Below are positions 20,373 through 42,987 of a stretch of 64,000 nt of DNA, piece after piece. The notes under the pieces were generated by a model that was not told the origin of the DNA, searched no databases, and saw nothing but the letters and a program-made list of their open reading frames with translations. How positions within the stretch are numbered: the stretch's first letter is position 1; every line of letters begins with the position of its first letter. Position numbers and translations under genes: made by a program. This DNA is from a virus (Duplodnaviria > Caudoviricetes): the IMG/VR virus record IMGVR_UViG_3300020577_012961, positions 1-64,000 of that record; one strand, written 5' to 3'.

Positions 20373-20762
20373 ATGCCGCTCGCCATCAACGGCCACCGCG
20401 GGATGGCCTACCAGAACGCCGGCAACGGGCGGCTCACCTGGGTGTGGAAGAACGGCAACCCCGTCTTCGACGACGGCCTTGTCGACCGCATCATGTCCCT
20501 GCTCGTCGAGCAGGAGTGGTGGGCGGACCGCGCACGGCGGCGTCACTCCCAACTCCTTGACGTTCACGAGGACGACGAGCGCACGAAGAGCCGACTCGAG
20601 CAATATGCACTCGACGCCCTCGATTCTCTGATTGGCGAAGGCGCCGTCAGAAACGTGGCGCCAGAGGCAAGCCGAGACATCAACGGCCGCTGGTCGCTGC
20701 TCATCCGCTACTCCACCGCCGCCGGGCCGCAGAAGCCGCTCGACGTGCCAATCTCGGTGTGA
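20373..20762 (+). CDS. Baseplate protein (Mu gp46-like)
   Basis: WWAD...SQL, YALDALDSLI pattern. Confidence 0.75.
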   Translation: MPLAINGHRGMAYQNAGNGRLTWVWKNGNPVFDDGLVDRIMSLLVEQEWWADRARRRHSQLLDVHEDDERTKSRLEQYALDALDSLIGEGAVRNVAPEASRDINGRWSLLIRYSTAAGPQKPLDVPISV

Positions 20763-22255
20763 CGATGGCATTCACTCCCGATCCCATCGAGACGCTCGAG
20801 GGCAACCAGGTCGCGCGCTACCGGAACAAGTTCCCCGACAAGGGGCTCGGGACCGAGGACTTCCTCGGCAAGCTGGCCCACGCCGAGGCGGCCGGGCACT
20901 ACTCGCAGCAGCAGCGCATGCGGCGCATCTCGCTCGACTCCGTGCCGCAGAACGGCAGCCTCTACGCCGCGCTGTCGAGCTGGGCAACGGCAATCGGCCT
21001 GCCTGACGGAAGCGGCGTCGACGGCAGCTATGGGCCGCTCAAGGCGACCGTCGCAACGGGCATCGCCGCGCAGGCGCGAGGAAACGTGGGTGCCACGGTA
21101 TGGAGTGGCATCGGCGATGCGCCCGTGCTCACCGGGCCGGACGGCATCACCAAATTCGTGATGACCGCGGCTGCGTCCATCGGCGGTGGCGGCACCTGCA
21201 ACATCGCGCTCAACGCCACCACCCCGGGCACCGCCGGCAACGTCTCCGCCGGCGACATCCTGACCTTCGACTCGCCGCCGGCAAACGTGCAGTCGACGGT
21301 GTCCGTCGTCACCGGCGCCACCAACGCGATCGACCAGGAGTCCATCCAGGCCTTGCTGGCGCGCATCCTCGACCGCTGGCGCAACCCGCCCAAGGGCGGC
21401 GCCGCGGCTGACTACCGCGCCTGGTGCGAATCGCTCGCGGGCATCGTGGAGGTCTACCTCTACCCGCTCCGAAAGGGGACGGGCACCGTCGACATGGTCG
21501 TCCTGCAGGCGGGTTCCAGCGCCTACAGCACCTCCACCCGCGACCCAGGAGCGACACTCGCAGGGCTCGTCCAAGCCTTGATTGACGAGGTGCGGCCGAT
21601 CACCGTCGAAAGTGCGCTCGTGCTGCGGCCGACACTCGGCACGGGCATGACCATCCGGCTCCGCGTCACGCCCAGCGCCGCCAAATACGTGTTCGACTGG
21701 AATTCAACGGGCGGCACCTGGACCGTCGACACCGTCGTCGACACCACGCACATCAAGCTGAATACCCTCGCGGACGCAACGCTGAAGGCGGCAATCGACA
21801 ACGCGCAGAAGCCGCGAATCCAGCTTCGCCGCACCGGCTCGGTGCTGCCGGTCCAGGTCCGATGCATCGCGTGGTCCGACGGTGGTGGCAAGACCACCCT
21901 GACCCTCGAGACTGCGCTCGTTGTGTCCAACACGCCCAGCGTCGGTGACGCGGTTTATGCCGGGGGACCGGTCGTCGCCGGTGTGGCCGACGCTGTGCTG
22001 GCCTACGTCGACAGCCTAGGGCCCTCGCGTGTGAGCGGCTACGCCGACCCCAACACGATCTGGGACGACACCTGCCGTATTGACCAGCTCCGCCGCACTG
22101 CGCTAGACGCTGTTGATGCGGATGGGACGCGCCTGGTCCTGTCTTTCGTGGCAACGCCCACCATCAACGGCAGCACCAGCGACGTGCAGGCGGCAGACGC
22201 CTCGAGCAGCCCGCCAGAGCTCCTTTTCGCCAAGTGGATTTCGGTTACGGCCTGA
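20759..22255 (+). CDS. Baseplate J-like wedge protein (Mu gp47)
   Basis: PGTAGN, DQES...L.RI....RNPPKGG...DY..W, GTGTVD; start may be ATG 20765. Confidence 0.88.
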   Translation: MTMAFTPDPIETLEGNQVARYRNKFPDKGLGTEDFLGKLAHAEAAGHYSQQQRMRRISLDSVPQNGSLYAALSSWATAIGLPDGSGVDGSYGPLKATVATGIAAQARGNVGATVWSGIGDAPVLTGPDGITKFVMTAAASIGGGGTCNIALNATTPGTAGNVSAGDILTFDSPPANVQSTVSVVTGATNAIDQESIQALLARILDRWRNPPKGGAAADYRAWCESLAGIVEVYLYPLRKGTGTVDMVVLQAGSSAYSTSTRDPGATLAGLVQALIDEVRPITVESALVLRPTLGTGMTIRLRVTPSAAKYVFDWNSTGGTWTVDTVVDTTHIKLNTLADATLKAAIDNAQKPRIQLRRTGSVLPVQVRCIAWSDGGGKTTLTLETALVVSNTPSVGDAVYAGGPVVAGVADAVLAYVDSLGPSRVSGYADPNTIWDDTCRIDQLRRTALDAVDADGTRLVLSFVATPTINGSTSDVQAADASSSPPELLFAKWISVTA

Positions 22256-22257
22256 TC

Positions 22258-23262
22258 ATGAGCACCGCCAGCGAGAAGGCGAAGCTGATCGCCAACCTGC
22301 CCGGTCGCCTGGACAGGTGGACCGACCTCACACCGGGCAGCGACCCAGACAAGGTGCTGGAGGTGAGCGCACGCGGCACGGACGAGGAAGTTGTCTTGCC
22401 GCTCGAAGCTCGTGCGGCAGACGCCAACCCACTCACCGCGACGGCGACCGGCATCGGAATGTGGGAAGAGGCCTTCGGGGACAGCAACACGAGCGTCGCA
22501 CTCTACGGCGGCGTAGAACAGCGTCGAGCGCACGTGTTGACGCGCCACCGGGAGCATGGAGCATCCACCCGCGATAACATCCTCGCCTCGCTGGTGGCGA
22601 TGTGCGGCTCGACGGCAGTGACACTGCTTGAGCACCGGCGCTCGGTGCTGACGGCTGCAAACTGGTACGAACTTCCCTCCTATCCGAGCATCGCCGGGAG
22701 CGCAAACACGGACCTTTCCATCGCGTGTGCCGACAACGCACCTGCATCGCGAGCAGGCGCTCAGGTGACGGTGCGCGTCACCCATGCCAGCGTCGAAGAC
22801 TTGACCCTGACGATCATCGCCCCAGACGCGACGCAGTCGAGTCCGATGCGATTTGGTTCGGGCTCGGTCACGGCTCAAGACTTCCGCTTCTTCTGGCCCG
22901 GCGCAGCGGGGAAGAGCATTACCGGCAATTGGACCATTCGCATCACAAACGCCAACGCAACCGTGGGCACGGTCGATGATCCGGCCGGTGATGGCATCAC
23001 TGGTCTGTTCGTCGAAGGCATCGGCTTCGGTCCGTACGACGGCGAAGGGCGCGGTGCCAACATCTTCGAGTGGTGTGCACTCGTGGATGAGGCAGCGGCA
23101 GTGTCTGGCATCTATGACCGAGCTGCGGTGGCCGCCGTCATCCAGCGATGGAACCAAGTGCACGGGCGGGGGTACTTGGCGCTCAAGAACCTCAACGGGG
23201 GCGACGCTGGCGTCTGGGGCGATTCCACCAATTCCTGCTGGGACGGCTTCATCTGGGAGTGA
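22258..23262 (+). CDS. Baseplate protein (gp48/YmfQ-like) with inserted proprotein-convertase P-domain-like module
   Basis: LPG, P.TA...I.MWEE, EQRRA N-terminal motifs; VTVRVTH..VEDLTLTIIAPD...GNWTIRIT insert. Confidence 0.68.
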   Translation: MSTASEKAKLIANLPGRLDRWTDLTPGSDPDKVLEVSARGTDEEVVLPLEARAADANPLTATATGIGMWEEAFGDSNTSVALYGGVEQRRAHVLTRHREHGASTRDNILASLVAMCGSTAVTLLEHRRSVLTAANWYELPSYPSIAGSANTDLSIACADNAPASRAGAQVTVRVTHASVEDLTLTIIAPDATQSSPMRFGSGSVTAQDFRFFWPGAAGKSITGNWTIRITNANATVGTVDDPAGDGITGLFVEGIGFGPYDGEGRGANIFEWCALVDEAAAVSGIYDRAAVAAVIQRWNQVHGRGYLALKNLNGGDAGVWGDSTNSCWDGFIWE

Positions 23263-23265
23263 CCG

Positions 23266-23847
23266 ATGGCGTGGCCCTACGACACATTCCTCGAGACGAT
23301 CTCCGCAGGTGTCACGACGGCCAAGAAGACGTTTGCCGACGGCATCCAGCAGGCGATCAATCGCCTGTTCTCGGGCGCGTACCGCGTGTGGAAGCTCGAA
23401 GTGAACGCCGCGGGCGGCCCCTCCACCAATGCCGGCAGCAACGAGATCTACGCGCTCGGCAAGATCGTGACCGCCAGTGACCTCTACGCGAGGCGACTCC
23501 GTGCAACGGGAAACTCGCTCGTGGTCGGCGACTTCGATTTCCCGACCGGCAACTTCGGGGCTTCAGCGACGGTTTCCAACGTCTCGGGCAACGACACGCA
23601 CTTCCGGTTCCAGGTCAACGCCGCCGGTGCAGGCGTGGCGGCGCCTGGCTCAGTGCGCCTGACCTTCAAGGACGGCGCCTACCCGACCGCTCCGCGTGCG
23701 ATCGGTGTCCTTCGAGCCGTCGACAACAACGCCGACTTCGCCTTCGGAGTGCAGGTTGACTGCACGACCACGACGGCCGTCCTGACGTGGTGGGGGACTC
23801 CGACCGCCGGCCGCTCGTACTACTTCGACGTGTTCGTCATCGGGTGA
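23266..23847 (+). CDS. Short tail fibre / putative receptor-binding protein
   Basis: Directly after gp48-like gene where Mu-like fibres lie; beta-rich C-terminal domain with V.LTF...YPTAP motif. Confidence 0.62.
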   Translation: MAWPYDTFLETISAGVTTAKKTFADGIQQAINRLFSGAYRVWKLEVNAAGGPSTNAGSNEIYALGKIVTASDLYARRLRATGNSLVVGDFDFPTGNFGASATVSNVSGNDTHFRFQVNAAGAGVAAPGSVRLTFKDGAYPTAPRAIGVLRAVDNNADFAFGVQVDCTTTTAVLTWWGTPTAGRSYYFDVFVIG

Positions 23848-23869
23848 GAATGACGTCGAAGTAGTACGA
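23815..23869. repeat. Perfect 17-bp inverted repeat at the convergent gene junction
   Basis: tcgtactacttcgacgt (23815-23831) / acgtcgaagtagtacga (23853-23869), 21-nt loop. Confidence 0.9.
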
Positions 23870-24268
23870 CCTCGAAGAGGTGGGCTTGTTCCAGTAGGTG
23901 ATGATCGAGCCCACGCTCACGGCGTCGACCTGGACGCCGAAGCCGAAGTCCGCAGGGTCGTCGGCGGCGCGCAAGACGGCGATGCCGTGCGATGCCGGCG
24001 CATCGAGGAAGCGCGCAAGGGAAATGCGCACCGCCGCGGGGTCGCTCTGGCCGGTGCCAGCGCTGTTTACCTGGAACCGGAAGGAGGTTGCTGTGCCGGT
24101 AACGTTCGACACGGTGGCCTCGGTCCCGTAGCTGCCGTTGGGGAAGTCGAAGTCCGTGACAAGGATTGGCTCTTCCCCGCGCGGCAGCTCTTCGGGGTTT
24201 GGCGCTGTGCAGCCTGCCAAGGCAGCTGCGAGCAGATACGCGAAAAGCAGGGGAGCACGGTGCCGCAC
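23837..24268 (-). CDS. Lipoprotein whose mature domain is paralogous to the tail-fibre C-terminal domain
   Basis: GGAGG RBS then GTG at 24268; MRHRAPLLFAYLLAAALAG-C lipobox (Cys20); 55/109 identical residues to 23266..23847 in an ungapped hand alignment. Confidence 0.85.
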   Translation of the reverse strand: MRHRAPLLFAYLLAAALAGCTAPNPEELPRGEEPILVTDFDFPNGSYGTEATVSNVTGTATSFRFQVNSAGTGQSDPAAVRISLARFLDAPASHGIAVLRAADDPADFGFGVQVDAVSVGSIITYWNKPTSSRSYYFDVILTR

Positions 24269-24281
24269 GACAGCCCTCCGT

Positions 24282-24779
24282 TCACAGCACGTTGTACATC
24301 GCGCGGTCGCGTTTGGAGTCGGTGACCACCTCGATGGCTCGCACGCGATCCAACCGGAACGTGCGCTCTTCTTGGCGGAGGTGGCAGTAGCCACCGAAAA
24401 GGTCCTTGTTGTATCCCTTCTCGCCGAGTTGGTACCCGGACTGCGCTCCGCCAAGCCACTCGGGCGTGACGACGCGAGAGCTCCATTCGCCGTGGGTGTC
24501 GCAGTAGACGATTTCGATGTCCCACTCCTTGCGGATGGCCATCGAGATGGTCCGGCGCCTGGGCCGCGGGTCGAACGGCGGCCGATCCAGGTCGGGCCCG
24601 GTCTCCCCGAGCTGGCGCTCCTCGAAGGGCAGGCCGAAGAAGTCCGTCGGCTGGGCCTCCACCGGAGTGGGTGGCCCTGGCTGGTAGATGGTCCGCTGCC
24701 GCTCGACCTCGGCGTTGTGGCGGCTGATGGCGTAGCCGATCACCGCAACGACGACCACAGCGAGAAGCACCAGTTCCAC
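24282..24779 (-). CDS. WYL-domain protein with N-terminal transmembrane anchor
   Basis: IEIVYCD..G..S.R.V.P and GYCHLRQEERTFRLDRV WYL motifs; hydrophobic N-terminus; no HTH. Confidence 0.82.
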   Translation of the reverse strand: MELVLLAVVVVAVIGYAISRHNAEVERQRTIYQPGPPTPVEAQPTDFFGLPFEERQLGETGPDLDRPPFDPRPRRRTISMAIRKEWDIEIVYCDTHGEWSSRVVTPEWLGGAQSGYQLGEKGYNKDLFGGYCHLRQEERTFRLDRVRAIEVVTDSKRDRAMYNVL

Positions 24780-24818
24780 GTCCGCCTCCCCGGCCTCGGG
24801 ATGGCCGGTTCGAGCTGA

Positions 24819-24847
24819 AGCCTACCGAACCTCACGGTCGGCTGCAA
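24819..24847 (-). promoter_or_regulatory. Sigma70-like promoter for the WYL-lipoprotein operon
   Basis: TTGCAG-17 nt-TAGGCT on - strand, about 40 nt upstream of GTG 24779 (GGGGAGG RBS). Confidence 0.55.
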
Positions 24848-24989: not shown

Positions 24990-25565
24990 ATGTTCAACGA
25001 CCTCTCCGATGGTGGAATCGTCCTCGTCGCCCAGTACAGCGGCGACATCCCGATCAGCTTCCTCGGCATCGGCGCCAACGGCCAGCCCGGCAAGGCGGGG
25101 CTTGTGCGCAACCTGTCGTCGGCGAACTGGATCGCCTCGGACTGGTTCTTCGTCGGCGCGTCGGCCAAGGTTGCTCTGACCGTCTCGGGCGCCATCGGAA
25201 CCGGCGTGAAGATCCGCATGGAGGGGCGCCGCCGCGACACCGTGAACGACGCGGACGGCCCCCCGATCGTCCCGCTCTTCCGGCCCTTCCTCATCGACAC
25301 CACGCGAACCGACAGCCCCGCCACCGCGGCCGCGAAGGAGCAGACCATCCTGGCGGCCGACTTCCGGAACGGCCTGGGCACCGGCACCGACCAGGTGAGC
25401 GACTGGAACGGCACGGCCGCCGGCGCGGCCGCCGCTTCCGAGGCGCTTGACGTGCGGCTGCTGAGCTCGGATGCGCTCATGTCGGGCTGGGCTCGCGTGC
25501 TGCTCATCAGCACGGCCGGCCCGACGACCGGAGACAAGATCATCGTCTCGGTCAATCGCGGGTAA
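24990..25565 (+). CDS. Hypothetical beta-rich structural protein
   Basis: GAGGA RBS, ATG 24990, strong codon bias. Confidence 0.6.
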   Translation: MFNDLSDGGIVLVAQYSGDIPISFLGIGANGQPGKAGLVRNLSSANWIASDWFFVGASAKVALTVSGAIGTGVKIRMEGRRRDTVNDADGPPIVPLFRPFLIDTTRTDSPATAAAKEQTILAADFRNGLGTGTDQVSDWNGTAAGAAAASEALDVRLLSSDALMSGWARVLLISTAGPTTGDKIIVSVNRG

Positions 25566-40796: not shown

Positions 40797-40825
40797 AACA
40801 TAGCGCTCGCTTCGATATTTGTCAA
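40797..40825 (-). promoter_or_regulatory. Strong sigma70 promoter for ardC
   Basis: TTGACA-17 nt-TATGTT with AT-rich upstream element. Confidence 0.8.
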
Positions 40826-41112: not shown

Positions 41113-41322
41113 GGCACACAGCGCAGGCACAATCGCTCCGAAGTCCGCTCCGCTCCTGCGCAACCGAGCGGATTTTGAGTCCCCTGCGTCTGCCATTCCG
41201 CCACCCGGGCGTTCTGCTACTTCACCGTCGCTGACGCCCTCCTCGCATCCACTCCCGCCTCCGTACCTTTCGAGCCCGTTCCGGGCACAGCGGCACCCCC
41301 CGAAGGCACATTCCTGGGCACA
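41113..41322 (-). other. attP: attP: 5' half of tRNA-Leu(CAA) flanked by TGTGCC arm-type repeats
   Basis: tRNA fragment 6 bp after int stop; TGTGCC copies at 41113, 41126, 41284, 41305, 41317 on both sides of the core. Confidence 0.8.
41170..41210 (-). pseudogene. tRNA-Leu(CAA) 5' fragment (not a complete tRNA)
   Basis: GCCCGGG TG GCGGAATGGCAGACGC A GGGGA CTCAAAA TCC; no T-arm or 3' acceptor strand follows. Confidence 0.85.
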
Positions 41323-42347
41323 CTGACGCTGACGGCCGCGACGGCTGCGGCCCGGGCGTCGGAGAACGTGTGCGCGTAGCGGTTCACCATGTCGAGCGTC
41401 TTGTGGCCGAGGATATCACGGATGACCGCGAGCGGGACGCCGTCGCCGTGGAGGTAGCTGGCGAGCGTGTGCCGCAGGTCGTGCGGACGCAGCTTCCCGA
41501 CCTTCGCGGTCTCCCGGGCGTTGTGCCAGGCCGTGTAGTGGTTCGACTCGGCGAAGACGCGGCCAATCGCCGGGCCGGGGCCGCGCTGCACCGCCATCAT
41601 CCACAGCGCCTCCCACGCCCCCTCGTTGAGCGGGACCGATCTCGGCGCCCGGTTCTTCGTGATCGGACCCGGAAGGTCGATCGCGCCGGTGGCGTAGTTG
41701 ATCATCTCCCAGCGCACCATCGTCGCCTCGGTGGGTCGCATGCCGGTGTTCGCGCGCAGCAGCGCCCACGGCAGCACCTCGCGCCCGCGGGTGCCCCCGA
41801 GGGCCGCCAAGAAGCGCAGCAGCTCCTCGCGCGTGAGGATGCGCCAGGCGGCGGCGGTGTAGTGGTGCTCGGGGTTCTTCGCCAGCGGCGCCGCTGGCAT
41901 GATCTTCGCGACGTTGGCCGCGAACTTGAGCACCTGCCGAAGCGTCGACAGCTCTTTGCAGACGGTGCCGGCGCCGACCTGCTTCATCCGCTCGGCCCGG
42001 AACCGCTCCTGTGCTTCGACGTCGATGGTGCGCGGGTCACACTCGGGGCTGAAGAAGCGGCCGATCACGCGCAGGTGTTTCTCGCGCATCTTGTCCGTCT
42101 CCGACGAGAACGCCCGACCCTTCGACCGCGCCTGCTCTTCCTTCCACTCGAGGAACTTCACCCCGAGGATCTTGAGCGTGTAGTGGCCCTCGCGCTTGCG
42201 CTTCGCCTCGAGCTTGTCGACCTCGTCTCGCTCGACCCGAAGAGCCTCGACGCGCGTGCGCTTTCGTGTGGAGAAACGGACCACGTCTCCGTCGACGTAG
42301 AGCTTTGACCAGTAGTACGGGGAGCCGGGTCGTCGGTAGAGGGACAC
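41217..42347 (-). CDS. int: Tyrosine integrase
   Basis: TGMR..E, TKN...R.VPL, HDLRH, LGH...MVNRY catalytic residues; GTG start 42347. Confidence 0.93.
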   Translation of the reverse strand: MSLYRRPGSPYYWSKLYVDGDVVRFSTRKRTRVEALRVERDEVDKLEAKRKREGHYTLKILGVKFLEWKEEQARSKGRAFSSETDKMREKHLRVIGRFFSPECDPRTIDVEAQERFRAERMKQVGAGTVCKELSTLRQVLKFAANVAKIMPAAPLAKNPEHHYTAAAWRILTREELLRFLAALGGTRGREVLPWALLRANTGMRPTEATMVRWEMINYATGAIDLPGPITKNRAPRSVPLNEGAWEALWMMAVQRGPGPAIGRVFAESNHYTAWHNARETAKVGKLRPHDLRHTLASYLHGDGVPLAVIRDILGHKTLDMVNRYAHTFSDARAAAVAAVSVSVPRNVPSGGAAVPGTGSKGTEAGVDARRASATVK

Positions 42348-42529
42348 TCGAGGGCCTCCAGCGGGGCGCGTGGTTCGAGAGCCGCGAGCAGGTCTGCGCC
42401 ACGATACCACCGCTTCCGCCCCGCGGCGCGGTGGGCGACGTGGCGACGGAGCCAGCGCTTCTCCACGCCGAGAAGGGCAGAGGCCTCCTTCTCCGGATAG
42501 AGGGCGTTCTCGGCGAGGACGGCGGGCAC
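42158..42529 (-). CDS. Excisionase-like HTH protein
   Basis: EKEASALLGV...WLRR...RWYR..DL; overlaps int 5' end. Confidence 0.6.
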   Translation of the reverse strand: MPAVLAENALYPEKEASALLGVEKRWLRRHVAHRAAGRKRWYRGADLLAALEPRAPLEALECPSTDDPAPRTTGQSSTSTETWSVSPHESARASRLFGSSETRSTSSRRSASARATTRSRSSG

Positions 42530-42531
42530 CG

Positions 42532-42987
42532 CTATGCGCCTCCCGTGGCCAGCTCGCCGCCGTCGACCACCTCGACGCCATGCCGCCGCCCGACCGCCAC
42601 CAGCAGCTCGGCGAGCACGCGGCGGTGGCACCTGGTCGCTGTGCCACACCAGCAGCAGAGCACCACCCGCCCGCGCCCGAGCAGCTCGCGCCACGCCGCG
42701 CGCCTCCGGCGGTAGCTCGCCCGCATCTCCTCGACGTAGAGCTCGCGGTACCAGGCGAAGGCGAAGTCGAGGCGCTCTTCCTCGGTCGAGCCGATCGGGG
42801 CGCCCCTCTTCCGCTTCGCGAGCCGCTTGCAGGCGAGCCCGGCGTCGAGGAGGTCATCCGACGGCGCGAACGGGTCGGCGGCGGCGCCCCCGCCGCGTCG
42901 GGTGACGTTGAAGGCGTCGGGCCCGCGGTAGCCGGCGATCTTGGCGCGGGGGTTGGGAAGGCGCGCCGTGTGGACGAGGAGGCGCAT
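42532..42987 (-). CDS. DUF488-like protein
   Basis: Y..EMR...W..LL....VVLCCWC....CHRRVLA. Confidence 0.6.
   Translation of the reverse strand: MRLLVHTARLPNPRAKIAGYRGPDAFNVTRRGGGAAADPFAPSDDLLDAGLACKRLAKRKRGAPIGSTEEERLDFAFAWYRELYVEEMRASYRRRRAAWRELLGRGRVVLCCWCGTATRCHRRVLAELLVAVGRRHGVEVVDGGELATGGA

What the first reader, a model, noticed from the sequence alone, without database searches (positions are those of the whole stretch)
23837..24847. Membrane-tethered stand-alone WYL protein co-transcribed with the decoy lipoprotein from its own promoter
Seen: a - strand TTGCAG-17-TAGGCT promoter, then a TM-linker-WYL gene, a 13-nt gap with GGAGG, then the lipoprotein, all inserted against the late operon like a moron. 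Known: WYL domains bind nucleic acids and usually sit on HTH regulators of defence or DNA-damage genes. This one has no HTH but has a membrane anchor. Inference: an envelope-level anti-phage pair, with the lipoprotein acting at the surface or periplasm and the WYL protein sensing or holding injected nucleic acid at the inner membrane.
Basis: partly seen in the sequence, partly recalled or inferred. Interest (0 to 1): 0.78.

Follow-up and report, generated by a model that had tools for sequence, protein, structure and literature searches.

The report
Membrane-anchored WYL protein plus fibre-mimic lipoprotein
A temperate phage carries, backwards at the end of its tail-fibre genes, a small self-promoted operon encoding a membrane-pinned nucleic-acid-sensor-type (WYL) protein and an exported lipoprotein that copies the tip of the phage's own tail fibre; it is most likely an untested two-layer device for keeping rival or sister phages out.

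Summary
On the minus strand there is a TTGCAG-17-TAGGCT promoter-like site. It is followed by a 165-aa gene (N-terminal TM helix, disordered Pro-rich linker, WYL barrel; no HTH, no WCX), a 13-nt gap holding GGAGGG, and a 143-aa lipoprotein gene (lipobox LAGC). The pair converges on the tail-fibre gene.

The lipoprotein's mature part is 50% identical to the fibre's C-terminal 110 aa. The same module ends a 793-aa tailspike-like protein from another contig.

The cassette is not a recent insertion. Two distant relatives (baseplate proteins 30-40% identical in the one with DNA) keep TM-WYL plus an abutting lipoprotein at the same junction. TM-WYL is conserved (43-48%), while the lipoproteins are unrelated to each other, and one is shown not to be fibre-like.

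About half of the 52 nearest WYL relatives also carry a TM anchor. They sit next to prophage repressors, inside a BREX locus, or behind helicase-nucleases. No cultured phage has one, and I found no paper on them.

Best reading (0.45): T5 Llp/Cor-like receptor masking by the lipoprotein, plus an inner-membrane WYL sensor or blocker. Function is inferred, not shown. The scan had already noted membrane-anchored WYL prophage morons on other DNA (e1-365512, e1-310263). The lipoprotein pairing and fibre mimicry are new here.

The parts
24819..24847 (-). Sigma-70-like promoter, TTGCAG (24847-24842), 17-nt spacer, TAGGCT (24824-24819)
   Evidence: Sequence read. The pattern TTGNNN-16/18-TANNNT occurs only 6 times in 186 kb of the contig (both strands), and at least three of those sites lie just upstream of gene starts. 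Relative L004 has TTGACC-17-TACGCT at the same position.
24785..24791 (-). Ribosome-binding site GGGGAGG, 5 nt before the GTG start
24282..24779 (-). TM-WYL gene, 165 aa: TM helix (about residues 2-20), basic flank, disordered Pro-rich linker (29-70), helix 71-84, five-strand WYL barrel 87-152, short C-terminal helix
   Evidence: Pfam WYL 32 bits. Hydropathy. AlphaFold2 model with alignment A1, pLDDT 80. Foldseek top hits are the WYL domains of PafBC, BrxR, CapW and DriD. The family profile matches PafBC at 8.5e-16. Third-position GC is 0.86.
24269..24281 (-). 13-nt intergenic gap holding the RBS GGAGGG (24279-24274)
   Evidence: Relatives have the same tight spacing, 8-10 nt with an RBS overlapping the stop.
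23837..24268 (-). Lipoprotein gene, 143 aa: signal peptide with lipobox LAGC (Cys20); mature residues 33-141 are a copy of the fibre tip
   Evidence: BLASTP against the fibre protein gives 50% identity over 109 aa with no gaps, E 7e-34. No family hit in Pfam, PHROGs, PADLOC or NCBIfam.
23266..23847 (+). Short tail-fibre gene (193 aa), following baseplate J and the gp48-like gene. The N-terminus (MAWP...) is shared with the L002 fibre. The C-terminal tip module (23512-23847) is the donor or paralogue of the lipoprotein domain.
   Evidence: Position after PF04865 and PF10076 genes. N-termini compared. The tip module also ends a 793-aa tailspike-like protein, P0061 (38% identity, E 1e-11).
23815..23869 (.). 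17-bp perfect inverted repeat spanning both stop codons; a strong hairpin on either transcript and a possible bidirectional terminator
   Evidence: repeat I2. RNA folds of -39.4 and -43.1 kcal/mol, z-scores -4.3 and -4.2. It arises from the shared SYYFDV codons of the two convergent paralogues.
24990..25565 (+). Conserved backbone gene on the far side of the cassette (191 aa, unknown function)
   Evidence: Homologous to the genes flanking the cassette in L002 and L004 (E 8e-5).

Best explanation
This is a lineage-conserved, self-promoted two-gene envelope cassette of a temperate phage with a Mu-like tail. It most likely acts in superinfection exclusion.

Gene 2 makes an exported lipoprotein. 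Its mature domain is a diverged copy of the phage's own fibre tip. It would bind or mask the structure that the tip recognises. That would stop further adsorption to the lysogen or infected cell, and to cell debris. T5 Llp and T1 Cor work this way, and they too are encoded beside the receptor-binding gene.

Gene 1 makes a single-pass inner-membrane protein. Its N-terminus is predicted to face outward. Its WYL domain hangs in the cytoplasm on a flexible linker of about 45 residues. By analogy with ssDNA-binding WYL domains, it would bind a nucleic-acid-type ligand at the membrane. It would then either block DNA entry (as inner-membrane SieA does) or trigger a membrane response.

Shown here: the architecture, the fold, the promoter-like site and RBS signals, the conserved synteny, and the pattern of variable lipoproteins and fibres beside a conserved TM-WYL. 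Inferred: expression timing, ligand, receptor masking, and any protection phenotype.
For: - The architecture and fold are confirmed.
- Topology: 12 of 18 family members have an acidic residue and no Lys/Arg before the TM helix. Most members other than the low-GC group (P0017-19, P0033, P0037, P0049) have a basic cluster right after it. By the positive-inside rule this puts the WYL domain in the cytoplasm.
- The invariant R145 aligns with CapW R184 (E. coli CapW R200), which is required for ssDNA binding (alignment; PMC11662680).
- The lipoprotein is a paralogue of the fibre tip, and the same tip module ends a tailspike-like protein.
- Three phage lineages keep TM-WYL plus an abutting lipoprotein between the fibre gene and the same backbone gene.
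- TM-WYL is 43-48% identical across them. The lipoproteins are unrelated to each other, and the two fibres that can be compared differ beyond a shared N-terminus. This is as expected if each lipoprotein is matched to its own fibre or receptor.
- The promoter-like site is one of only six such sites in the contig. The phage is temperate, with an integrase and an HTH_3 repressor.
- More distant TM-WYL proteins lie next to CI-like repressors, inside a BREX locus and behind helicase-nucleases.
- Exclusion factors encoded at the receptor-binding locus are an established pattern (PMC9586334, PMC11990801). An inner-membrane injection blocker is also established (PMC10883804).
Against: - There are no functional data, and the host is unknown and uncultured.
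- The lipoproteins of the two relatives are not fibre-like, so mimicry cannot be the general mechanism.
- The two proteins lie on opposite sides of the inner membrane, so direct cooperation is hard to picture.
- The fibre C-terminal module could be a folding or trimerisation module rather than the receptor-binding part. The lipoprotein structure model was unusable (pLDDT 47).
- The CapW and DriD ssDNA pockets also use a WCX domain, which is missing here.
- Only three syntenic examples were found.
- If the host has an outer membrane, a lipoprotein on its periplasmic face could not occupy an external binding site by simple competition.
Confidence: 0.45

Rival explanations
1. Two independent functions share one promoter. 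TM-WYL is a self-contained abortive-infection sensor-effector: ligand binding to the WYL domain clusters the TM helices and depolarises the membrane, as CARF-TM (Cam1) and other sensor-TM effectors do. The lipoprotein is an unrelated, swappable exclusion gene.
For: TM-WYL occurs without any lipoprotein in most contexts outside the closest subfamily: a BREX locus, helicase-nuclease operons and repressor-adjacent positions. About half of the nearest WYL relatives are TM-anchored. Makarova et al. 2014 treat WYL and CARF as parallel ligand sensors and list a membrane-associated CARF (PMC4012209). The comparison with Cam1 rests on my own knowledge.
Against: One TM helix with only 1-2 residues outside is a minimal effector. 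The abutting arrangement (8-13 nt, RBS over the stop) is kept in three lineages that have diverged to 30-48% identity, which argues for coupled expression and probably a linked function.
Confidence: 0.25
2. The pair serves the phage's own lytic cycle rather than defence of the lysogen. Examples would be protecting progeny from re-adsorbing to debris, or sensing DNA to time lysis in the way of T4 lysis inhibition.
For: T5 Llp has this debris-protection role (PMC9586334, PMC11990801). The cassette is a fixed backbone component among late structural genes, not a variable cargo gene.
Against: It is transcribed against the late operon from a sigma-70-like site rather than with it. TM-WYL relatives sit beside prophage repressors and in host defence loci. 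The predicted cytoplasmic location of the WYL domain does not fit periplasmic DNA sensing.
Confidence: 0.15
3. A two-component spanin: an inner-membrane i-spanin plus an outer-membrane lipoprotein o-spanin, acting in the last step of lysis.
For: The gene order, a TM protein followed at once by a small lipoprotein, resembles Rz/Rz1.
Against: An i-spanin is N-in/C-out with a periplasmic coiled coil. Here the charge distribution predicts N-out/C-in, and the soluble part is a WYL beta-barrel. The lipoprotein is about 123 aa when mature, beta-rich and fibre-derived, not a short Pro-rich peptide. No endolysin or holin adjoins it in the window. In L002 the endolysin lies 2.3 kb away on the other strand.
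Confidence: 0.03

Closest known systems
wHTH-WYL-WCX transcription regulators (CapW, BrxR, PafBC, DriD)
   Same: The WYL Sm/SH3-like barrel is the same: the best structural and profile matches are to these proteins. The CHLR-x3-R-x-FR-x-DR motif is conserved, including the Arg equivalent to CapW R184. They share an association with phage defence and prophage contexts.
   Different: There is no HTH and no WCX domain. Instead there is an N-terminal TM helix and a disordered linker, so the protein cannot act as a DNA-bound transcription factor.
T5 Llp and T1/phi80 Cor superinfection-exclusion lipoproteins
   Same: Each is a small phage lipoprotein encoded directly beside the receptor-binding gene and expressed apart from the late genes (PMC9586334, PMC11990801). 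Here the lipoprotein also varies between related phages.
   Different: There is no sequence similarity: no family hit in Pfam, PHROGs or NCBIfam. This lipoprotein is a paralogue of the fibre tip itself, and it is operonic with a conserved TM-WYL partner that Llp and Cor lack.
Inner-membrane injection blockers (P22 SieA; lactococcal Sie2009-type proteins, the latter from my own knowledge)
   Same: Each is a small inner-membrane protein expressed from a prophage. Some TM-WYL relatives sit right next to the CI-like repressor, as sie genes do.
   Different: There is no homology. SieA acts on ejection proteins through its membrane and periplasmic parts, whereas here the only folded domain is a cytoplasmic ligand-binding barrel.
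Sensor-TM defence effectors such as CARF-TM Cam1 (my own knowledge) and TM/WYL-TerB fusions (PMC4012209)
   Same: A cytoplasmic ligand-sensing domain is joined to a membrane anchor. TM-WYL-TerB forms were seen in viral contigs.
   Different: This protein has a single helix, no TerB domain and no known activating ligand or upstream signal generator.

Membership tests
WYL domain (Pfam PF13280) | Profile match above the curated cut-off | tested here: met
   32 bits against a cut-off of 21.8. PADLOC WYL models score 1e-9 to 4e-8.
WYL domain (Pfam PF13280) | Sm/SH3-like five-strand barrel fold | tested here: met
   In the AlphaFold2 model the barrel region has pLDDT above 90. Foldseek top hits are PafBC, BrxR, CapW and DriD, E 2e-5 to 1e-3.
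WYL domain (Pfam PF13280) | Conserved basic ligand-binding residues | tested here: inconclusive
   R135, R139 and R145 are invariant in 18 family members. R145 aligns with CapW R184. The second Arg of the CapW RWHVR motif is Gly here, and the first is Lys (PMC11662680).
wHTH-WYL-WCX regulators (CapW/BrxR/PafBC/DriD) | N-terminal winged HTH DNA-binding domain | tested here: not met
   There is no HTH hit. Residues 1-70 are a TM helix plus a disordered linker.
wHTH-WYL-WCX regulators (CapW/BrxR/PafBC/DriD) | C-terminal WCX dimerisation and ligand-pocket domain | tested here: not met
   The protein ends 13 residues after the barrel.
Llp/Cor exclusion lipoproteins | Lipoprotein signal peptide with lipobox Cys | tested here: met
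   MRHR, a hydrophobic core, then LAGC. The partners in L002 and L004 also have lipoboxes.
Llp/Cor exclusion lipoproteins | Encoded adjacent to the receptor-binding protein gene | tested here: met
   It is convergent with the fibre gene and overlaps it by 11 nt. The junction is the same in L002 and L004.
Llp/Cor exclusion lipoproteins | Sequence homology to Llp or Cor | tested here: not met
   No family hit in Pfam, PHROGs, NCBIfam or PADLOC.
Llp/Cor exclusion lipoproteins | Blocks the cognate receptor | not testable with these tools
   This needs adsorption and plating assays in the (unknown) host.
Two-component spanin (Rz/Rz1) | i-spanin with N-in/C-out topology and a periplasmic coiled coil | tested here: not met
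   The N-flank is acidic, the C-flank is basic, and the soluble part is a beta-barrel.
Two-component spanin (Rz/Rz1) | Placement in a lysis cassette with holin and endolysin | tested here: not met
   No lysis-enzyme domain was found in the neighbouring genes. The script for a contig-wide check was lost.

The most novel reading that the evidence does not exclude
Membrane-anchored WYL proteins are a new class of inner-membrane nucleic-acid sensors or blockers carried by temperate phages and defence islands. In this lineage they work as an obligate pair with a lipoprotein matched to the receptor. In this phage the lipoprotein was made by copying the phage's own fibre tip, which would be a receptor-binding-domain mimic used for exclusion and, as far as I could find, is undescribed.
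Probability: 0.3. Interest if true: 0.8.

Novelty: new variant of a known kind. Interest (0 to 1): 0.6.

Why it matters
WYL domains are known only as ligand sensors on transcription factors, helicases and nucleases. A WYL domain tethered to the membrane, with no output domain, implies a different way of acting, either at the site of DNA entry or on the membrane itself.

A lipoprotein built from the phage's own fibre tip would be a very direct way to evolve receptor masking. It would explain why exclusion genes and receptor-binding genes travel and vary together.

The family is fairly widespread in metagenomes. It is absent from the 50,697 cultured-phage records searched and from the defence-system catalogue searched, so it is an open target for defence and exclusion screens.

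Tried and rejected
**Searches that found nothing useful**
- DNA search of 7.5 kb against cultured phages: no match.
- tblastn of TM-WYL against cultured phages: only a weak WYL hit inside a BirA-like gene. The fibre gave none and a 576-aa early-region protein gave none.
- Word-based homologue searches for TM-WYL and for the lipoprotein found only the query itself.
- Scans of viral, genome and metagenome contigs with single proteins or close alignments gave no further syntenic loci.
- Two alignments were too diverse to give search patterns.
- The ESM Atlas search on the lipoprotein gave no usable hit.

**Analyses that failed**
- The single-sequence AlphaFold2 model of the lipoprotein was unusable (pLDDT 47). 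The fold of the tip module, and whether it is lectin-like, therefore remains unknown.
- Host identification failed. There are no tRNAs, relatives cannot be drawn for virus records, and the baseplate protein's best hits are 25-40% identical to phages mainly of Proteobacteria. The short lipoprotein signal peptides hint at a host with an outer membrane, but that is only an impression.
- The script machine was lost. A contig-wide screen for other lipoproteins, spanins or holins, and a dN/dS estimate for the fibre/lipoprotein pair, were not done.

**Ideas rejected**
- Spanin pair: the topology and fold do not fit.
- HTH-less regulator fragment or pseudogene: the family is conserved at full length with its TM helix.
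- The 'long palindrome' as a recombination substrate: the two paralogues are only about 62% identical at the DNA level, apart from one 17-nt run that shared codons explain.
Full report
**Setting**

The window is the first 64 kb of a 92.8-kb IMG/VR virus record with about 70% GC. The plus strand carries a Mu-like contractile-tail module. It includes baseplate J (20759-22255, PF04865, E 5e-34) and a gp48-like wedge protein (22234-23262). A 193-aa gene follows at the position of the tail fibre (23266-23847). The phage is temperate. It has a tyrosine integrase (41217-42857, minus strand) and an HTH_3 repressor-like gene beside a divergent promoter region.

**The observation**

All the stated elements are present:
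- TTGCAG (24847-24842), a 17-nt spacer, and TAGGCT (24824-24819).
- GGGGAGG 5 nt before the GTG start at 24779.
- A 165-aa ORF ending at 24282.
- A 13-nt gap holding GGAGGG.
- A GTG at 24268 that opens a 143-aa ORF ending at 23837.

The strict sigma-70 scan found nothing, because each hexamer matches the consensus at only 3 of 6 positions. The relaxed pattern TTGNNN-N16-18-TANNNT is very rare in this GC-rich contig, with six sites in 186 kb counting both strands. At least three of them lie in gaps just upstream of gene starts:
- This gene.
- The ArdC-like gene (site at 40825).
- The gene divergent from the repressor-like gene (site at 74347).

The other three sites are less clear. The 55038 site partly overlaps the start of the gene it precedes. 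The 72692 site shares sequence blocks with 74347. The 20040 site lies inside a gene. I read the pattern as marking the phage's few host-type promoters, with the cassette owning one. The homologous cassette in L004 has TTGACC-17-TACGCT at the same place. L002 has no clear equivalent.

**The TM-WYL protein**

Residues 1-18 are strongly hydrophobic. An AlphaFold2 model built with an 18-member alignment (pLDDT 80) gives these parts:
- A helix at residues 2-28.
- A disordered Pro-rich linker at 29-70.
- A helix at 71-84.
- A five-strand barrel at 87-152.
- A short C-terminal helix.

Foldseek places the barrel with the WYL domains of PafBC, BrxR, CapW and DriD. The family profile hits PafBC at 8.5e-16 and WYL-bearing AAA ATPases at 5e-14. 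Pfam WYL is above its cut-off. There is no HTH and no WCX domain.

Twelve of the 18 aligned members have an acidic residue and no Lys/Arg before the TM helix. Most members other than the low-GC group have a cluster of Arg/Lys right after it. The positive-inside rule therefore puts the N-terminus outside and the WYL domain in the cytoplasm.

Eight residues are invariant in the 18 sequences: Y92, G97, R102, C132, R135, R139, F141 and R145. R145 aligns with CapW R184 (E. coli CapW R200), whose mutation abolishes ssDNA binding (PMC11662680). The CapW RWHVR motif is not kept.

**The lipoprotein**

The signal peptide is MRHR, a hydrophobic core, then LAGC. Mature residues 33-141 align without gaps to residues 83-191 of the fibre protein at 50% identity (E 7e-34). 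At the DNA level identity is about 62% over 336 nt, so the duplication is old and both copies remain open.

The same module forms the C-terminal ~100 aa of a 793-aa tailspike-like protein from another contig (38% identity, E 1e-11). It is therefore a mobile fibre or spike end-module.

Because the two paralogues converge, their shared SYYFDV codons form a 17-bp perfect inverted repeat across both stop codons. This folds into a strong hairpin on either strand (-39 and -43 kcal/mol, z about -4.2). It is a plausible bidirectional terminator. The repeat itself needs no special explanation beyond the shared codons.

**Relatives and synteny**

An exhaustive HMMER search of 1.84 billion cluster representatives gave 52 hits. 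About 26 of them have a strongly hydrophobic segment, mostly N-terminal.

The two closest are P0005 (46%) and P0006 (54% over the domain). Each lies on a phage contig in the same arrangement: baseplate J, then a gp48-like gene, then the fibre, all running towards a convergent lipoprotein and TM-WYL pair.
- In L002 the gap between TM-WYL and the lipoprotein is 10 nt. In L004 it is 8 nt. In both, an RBS overlaps the stop codon.
- Both downstream proteins have lipoboxes, LAAC and IGAC.
- L002's baseplate proteins are 30-40% identical to the window's, and its TM-WYL is 55% identical over the domain.
- The gene on the far side of the cassette is also homologous in all three.

The cassette is therefore a fixed feature of this lineage, not a recent moron. 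By contrast, the three lipoproteins are unrelated to each other. L002's is not similar to its fibre or to anything else on its contig. The two fibres that can be compared share only their N-terminus.

**More distant TM-WYL proteins**

These lie in other contexts:
- Directly after CI-like HTH_3 repressors (L007, L012).
- Between PglX and PglZ of a BREX locus, with an Hsp70-like and helicase insert (L009/L010).
- Overlapping the end of a DEAD/UvrD-PDDEXK helicase-nuclease pair (L014/L015).
- Among small early-type phage genes.

No lipoprotein abuts them. One lies two genes away in L007. Viral contigs also hold TM-WYL forms with TerB-like extensions, which is a fusion type listed by Makarova et al. 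(PMC4012209).

Cultured phages have no relative. PADLOC and NCBIfam give only generic WYL matches. Three literature searches found nothing on membrane-anchored WYL proteins. Earlier notes of this scan had flagged membrane-anchored WYL morons in lambda-like prophages on other DNA. I treat these as leads that agree with my result, not as evidence.

**Interpretation**

The pattern is a conserved membrane protein beside a lipoprotein that changes between phages whose fibres also differ. Both are encoded at the receptor-binding locus and transcribed on their own. This matches the logic of T5 Llp and T1 Cor, which are exclusion lipoproteins encoded beside the receptor-binding gene (PMC9586334; PMC11990801). 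In this phage, the lipoprotein being a copy of the fibre tip suggests the simplest route to receptor masking.

The TM-WYL partner has a cytoplasmic barrel of an ssDNA-binding type and keeps company with defence and lysogeny genes. This fits an inner-membrane exclusion or sensing role. P22 SieA is a functional analogue (PMC10883804). None of this is shown. The ligand, the timing of expression, the receptor and the host are all unknown.

The main rival is that TM-WYL is an autonomous abortive-infection sensor-effector and the lipoprotein is a separate exclusion gene. A role in the phage's own lytic cycle is possible. A spanin pair is rejected on topology and fold.

**Verdict**

I rate it a new variant of known kinds: a WYL sensor domain in a new membrane-anchored architecture, and an exclusion-type lipoprotein of new origin. 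Interest is moderately high because the family is unstudied and the mimicry idea is directly testable. It is tempered by the unknown host and the small number of syntenic examples.

Noticed in passing
L034:1665-1693 (minus strand) and L034:3348-3376 (plus strand), i.e. contig 72692 and 74347: Two sigma-70-like sites share the blocks GTACTAG and GCTAGTCT. One faces a gene divergent from an HTH_3 repressor-like gene (contig 73859-74353). This is probably the immunity switch, with operator-like repeats.
   Followed up: partly
window:39835-40825: An ArdC-N plus zincin metallopeptidase (anti-restriction type) gene on the minus strand, with a near-consensus TTGACA-17-TATGTT site just upstream.
   Followed up: partly
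window:22234-23262: The gp48-like baseplate wedge protein carries an inserted proprotein-convertase P-domain (a galactose-binding-like sandwich, 26 bits). It may be an extra carbohydrate-binding element on the baseplate.
   Followed up: no
L009:8001-8414 and L010:5027-5440: A 137-aa low-GC TM-WYL gene sits inside a type I BREX locus, right after the PglX methyltransferase and before an Hsp70-like protein, a UvrD-type helicase and PglZ. It occupies a place in the locus, yet has no HTH as the regulator BrxR does.
   Followed up: no
L019:4554-5735, L020:4656-5810: Longer viral proteins (about 385-395 aa) combine an N-terminal TM helix, a WYL domain and a TerB-like C-terminal region. PHROG 6785 (unknown function) probably covers this form.
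   Followed up: no
L011:872-2167: Two WYL-type genes lie in tandem: a 215-aa soluble one with the same EPRLRA...W motif as the TM-WYL family, followed by the 152-aa TM-WYL P0010.
   Followed up: no
L004:1134-1580: The partner lipoprotein of P0006 ends in a Cys-rich, knottin-like segment (9 Cys in the last 50 residues), consistent with an oxidising, exported location.
   Followed up: no
window:23815-23869: A 17-bp perfect hairpin spans the overlapping stop codons of the convergent fibre and lipoprotein genes. It is a possible bidirectional terminator without a U-tract.
   Followed up: partly
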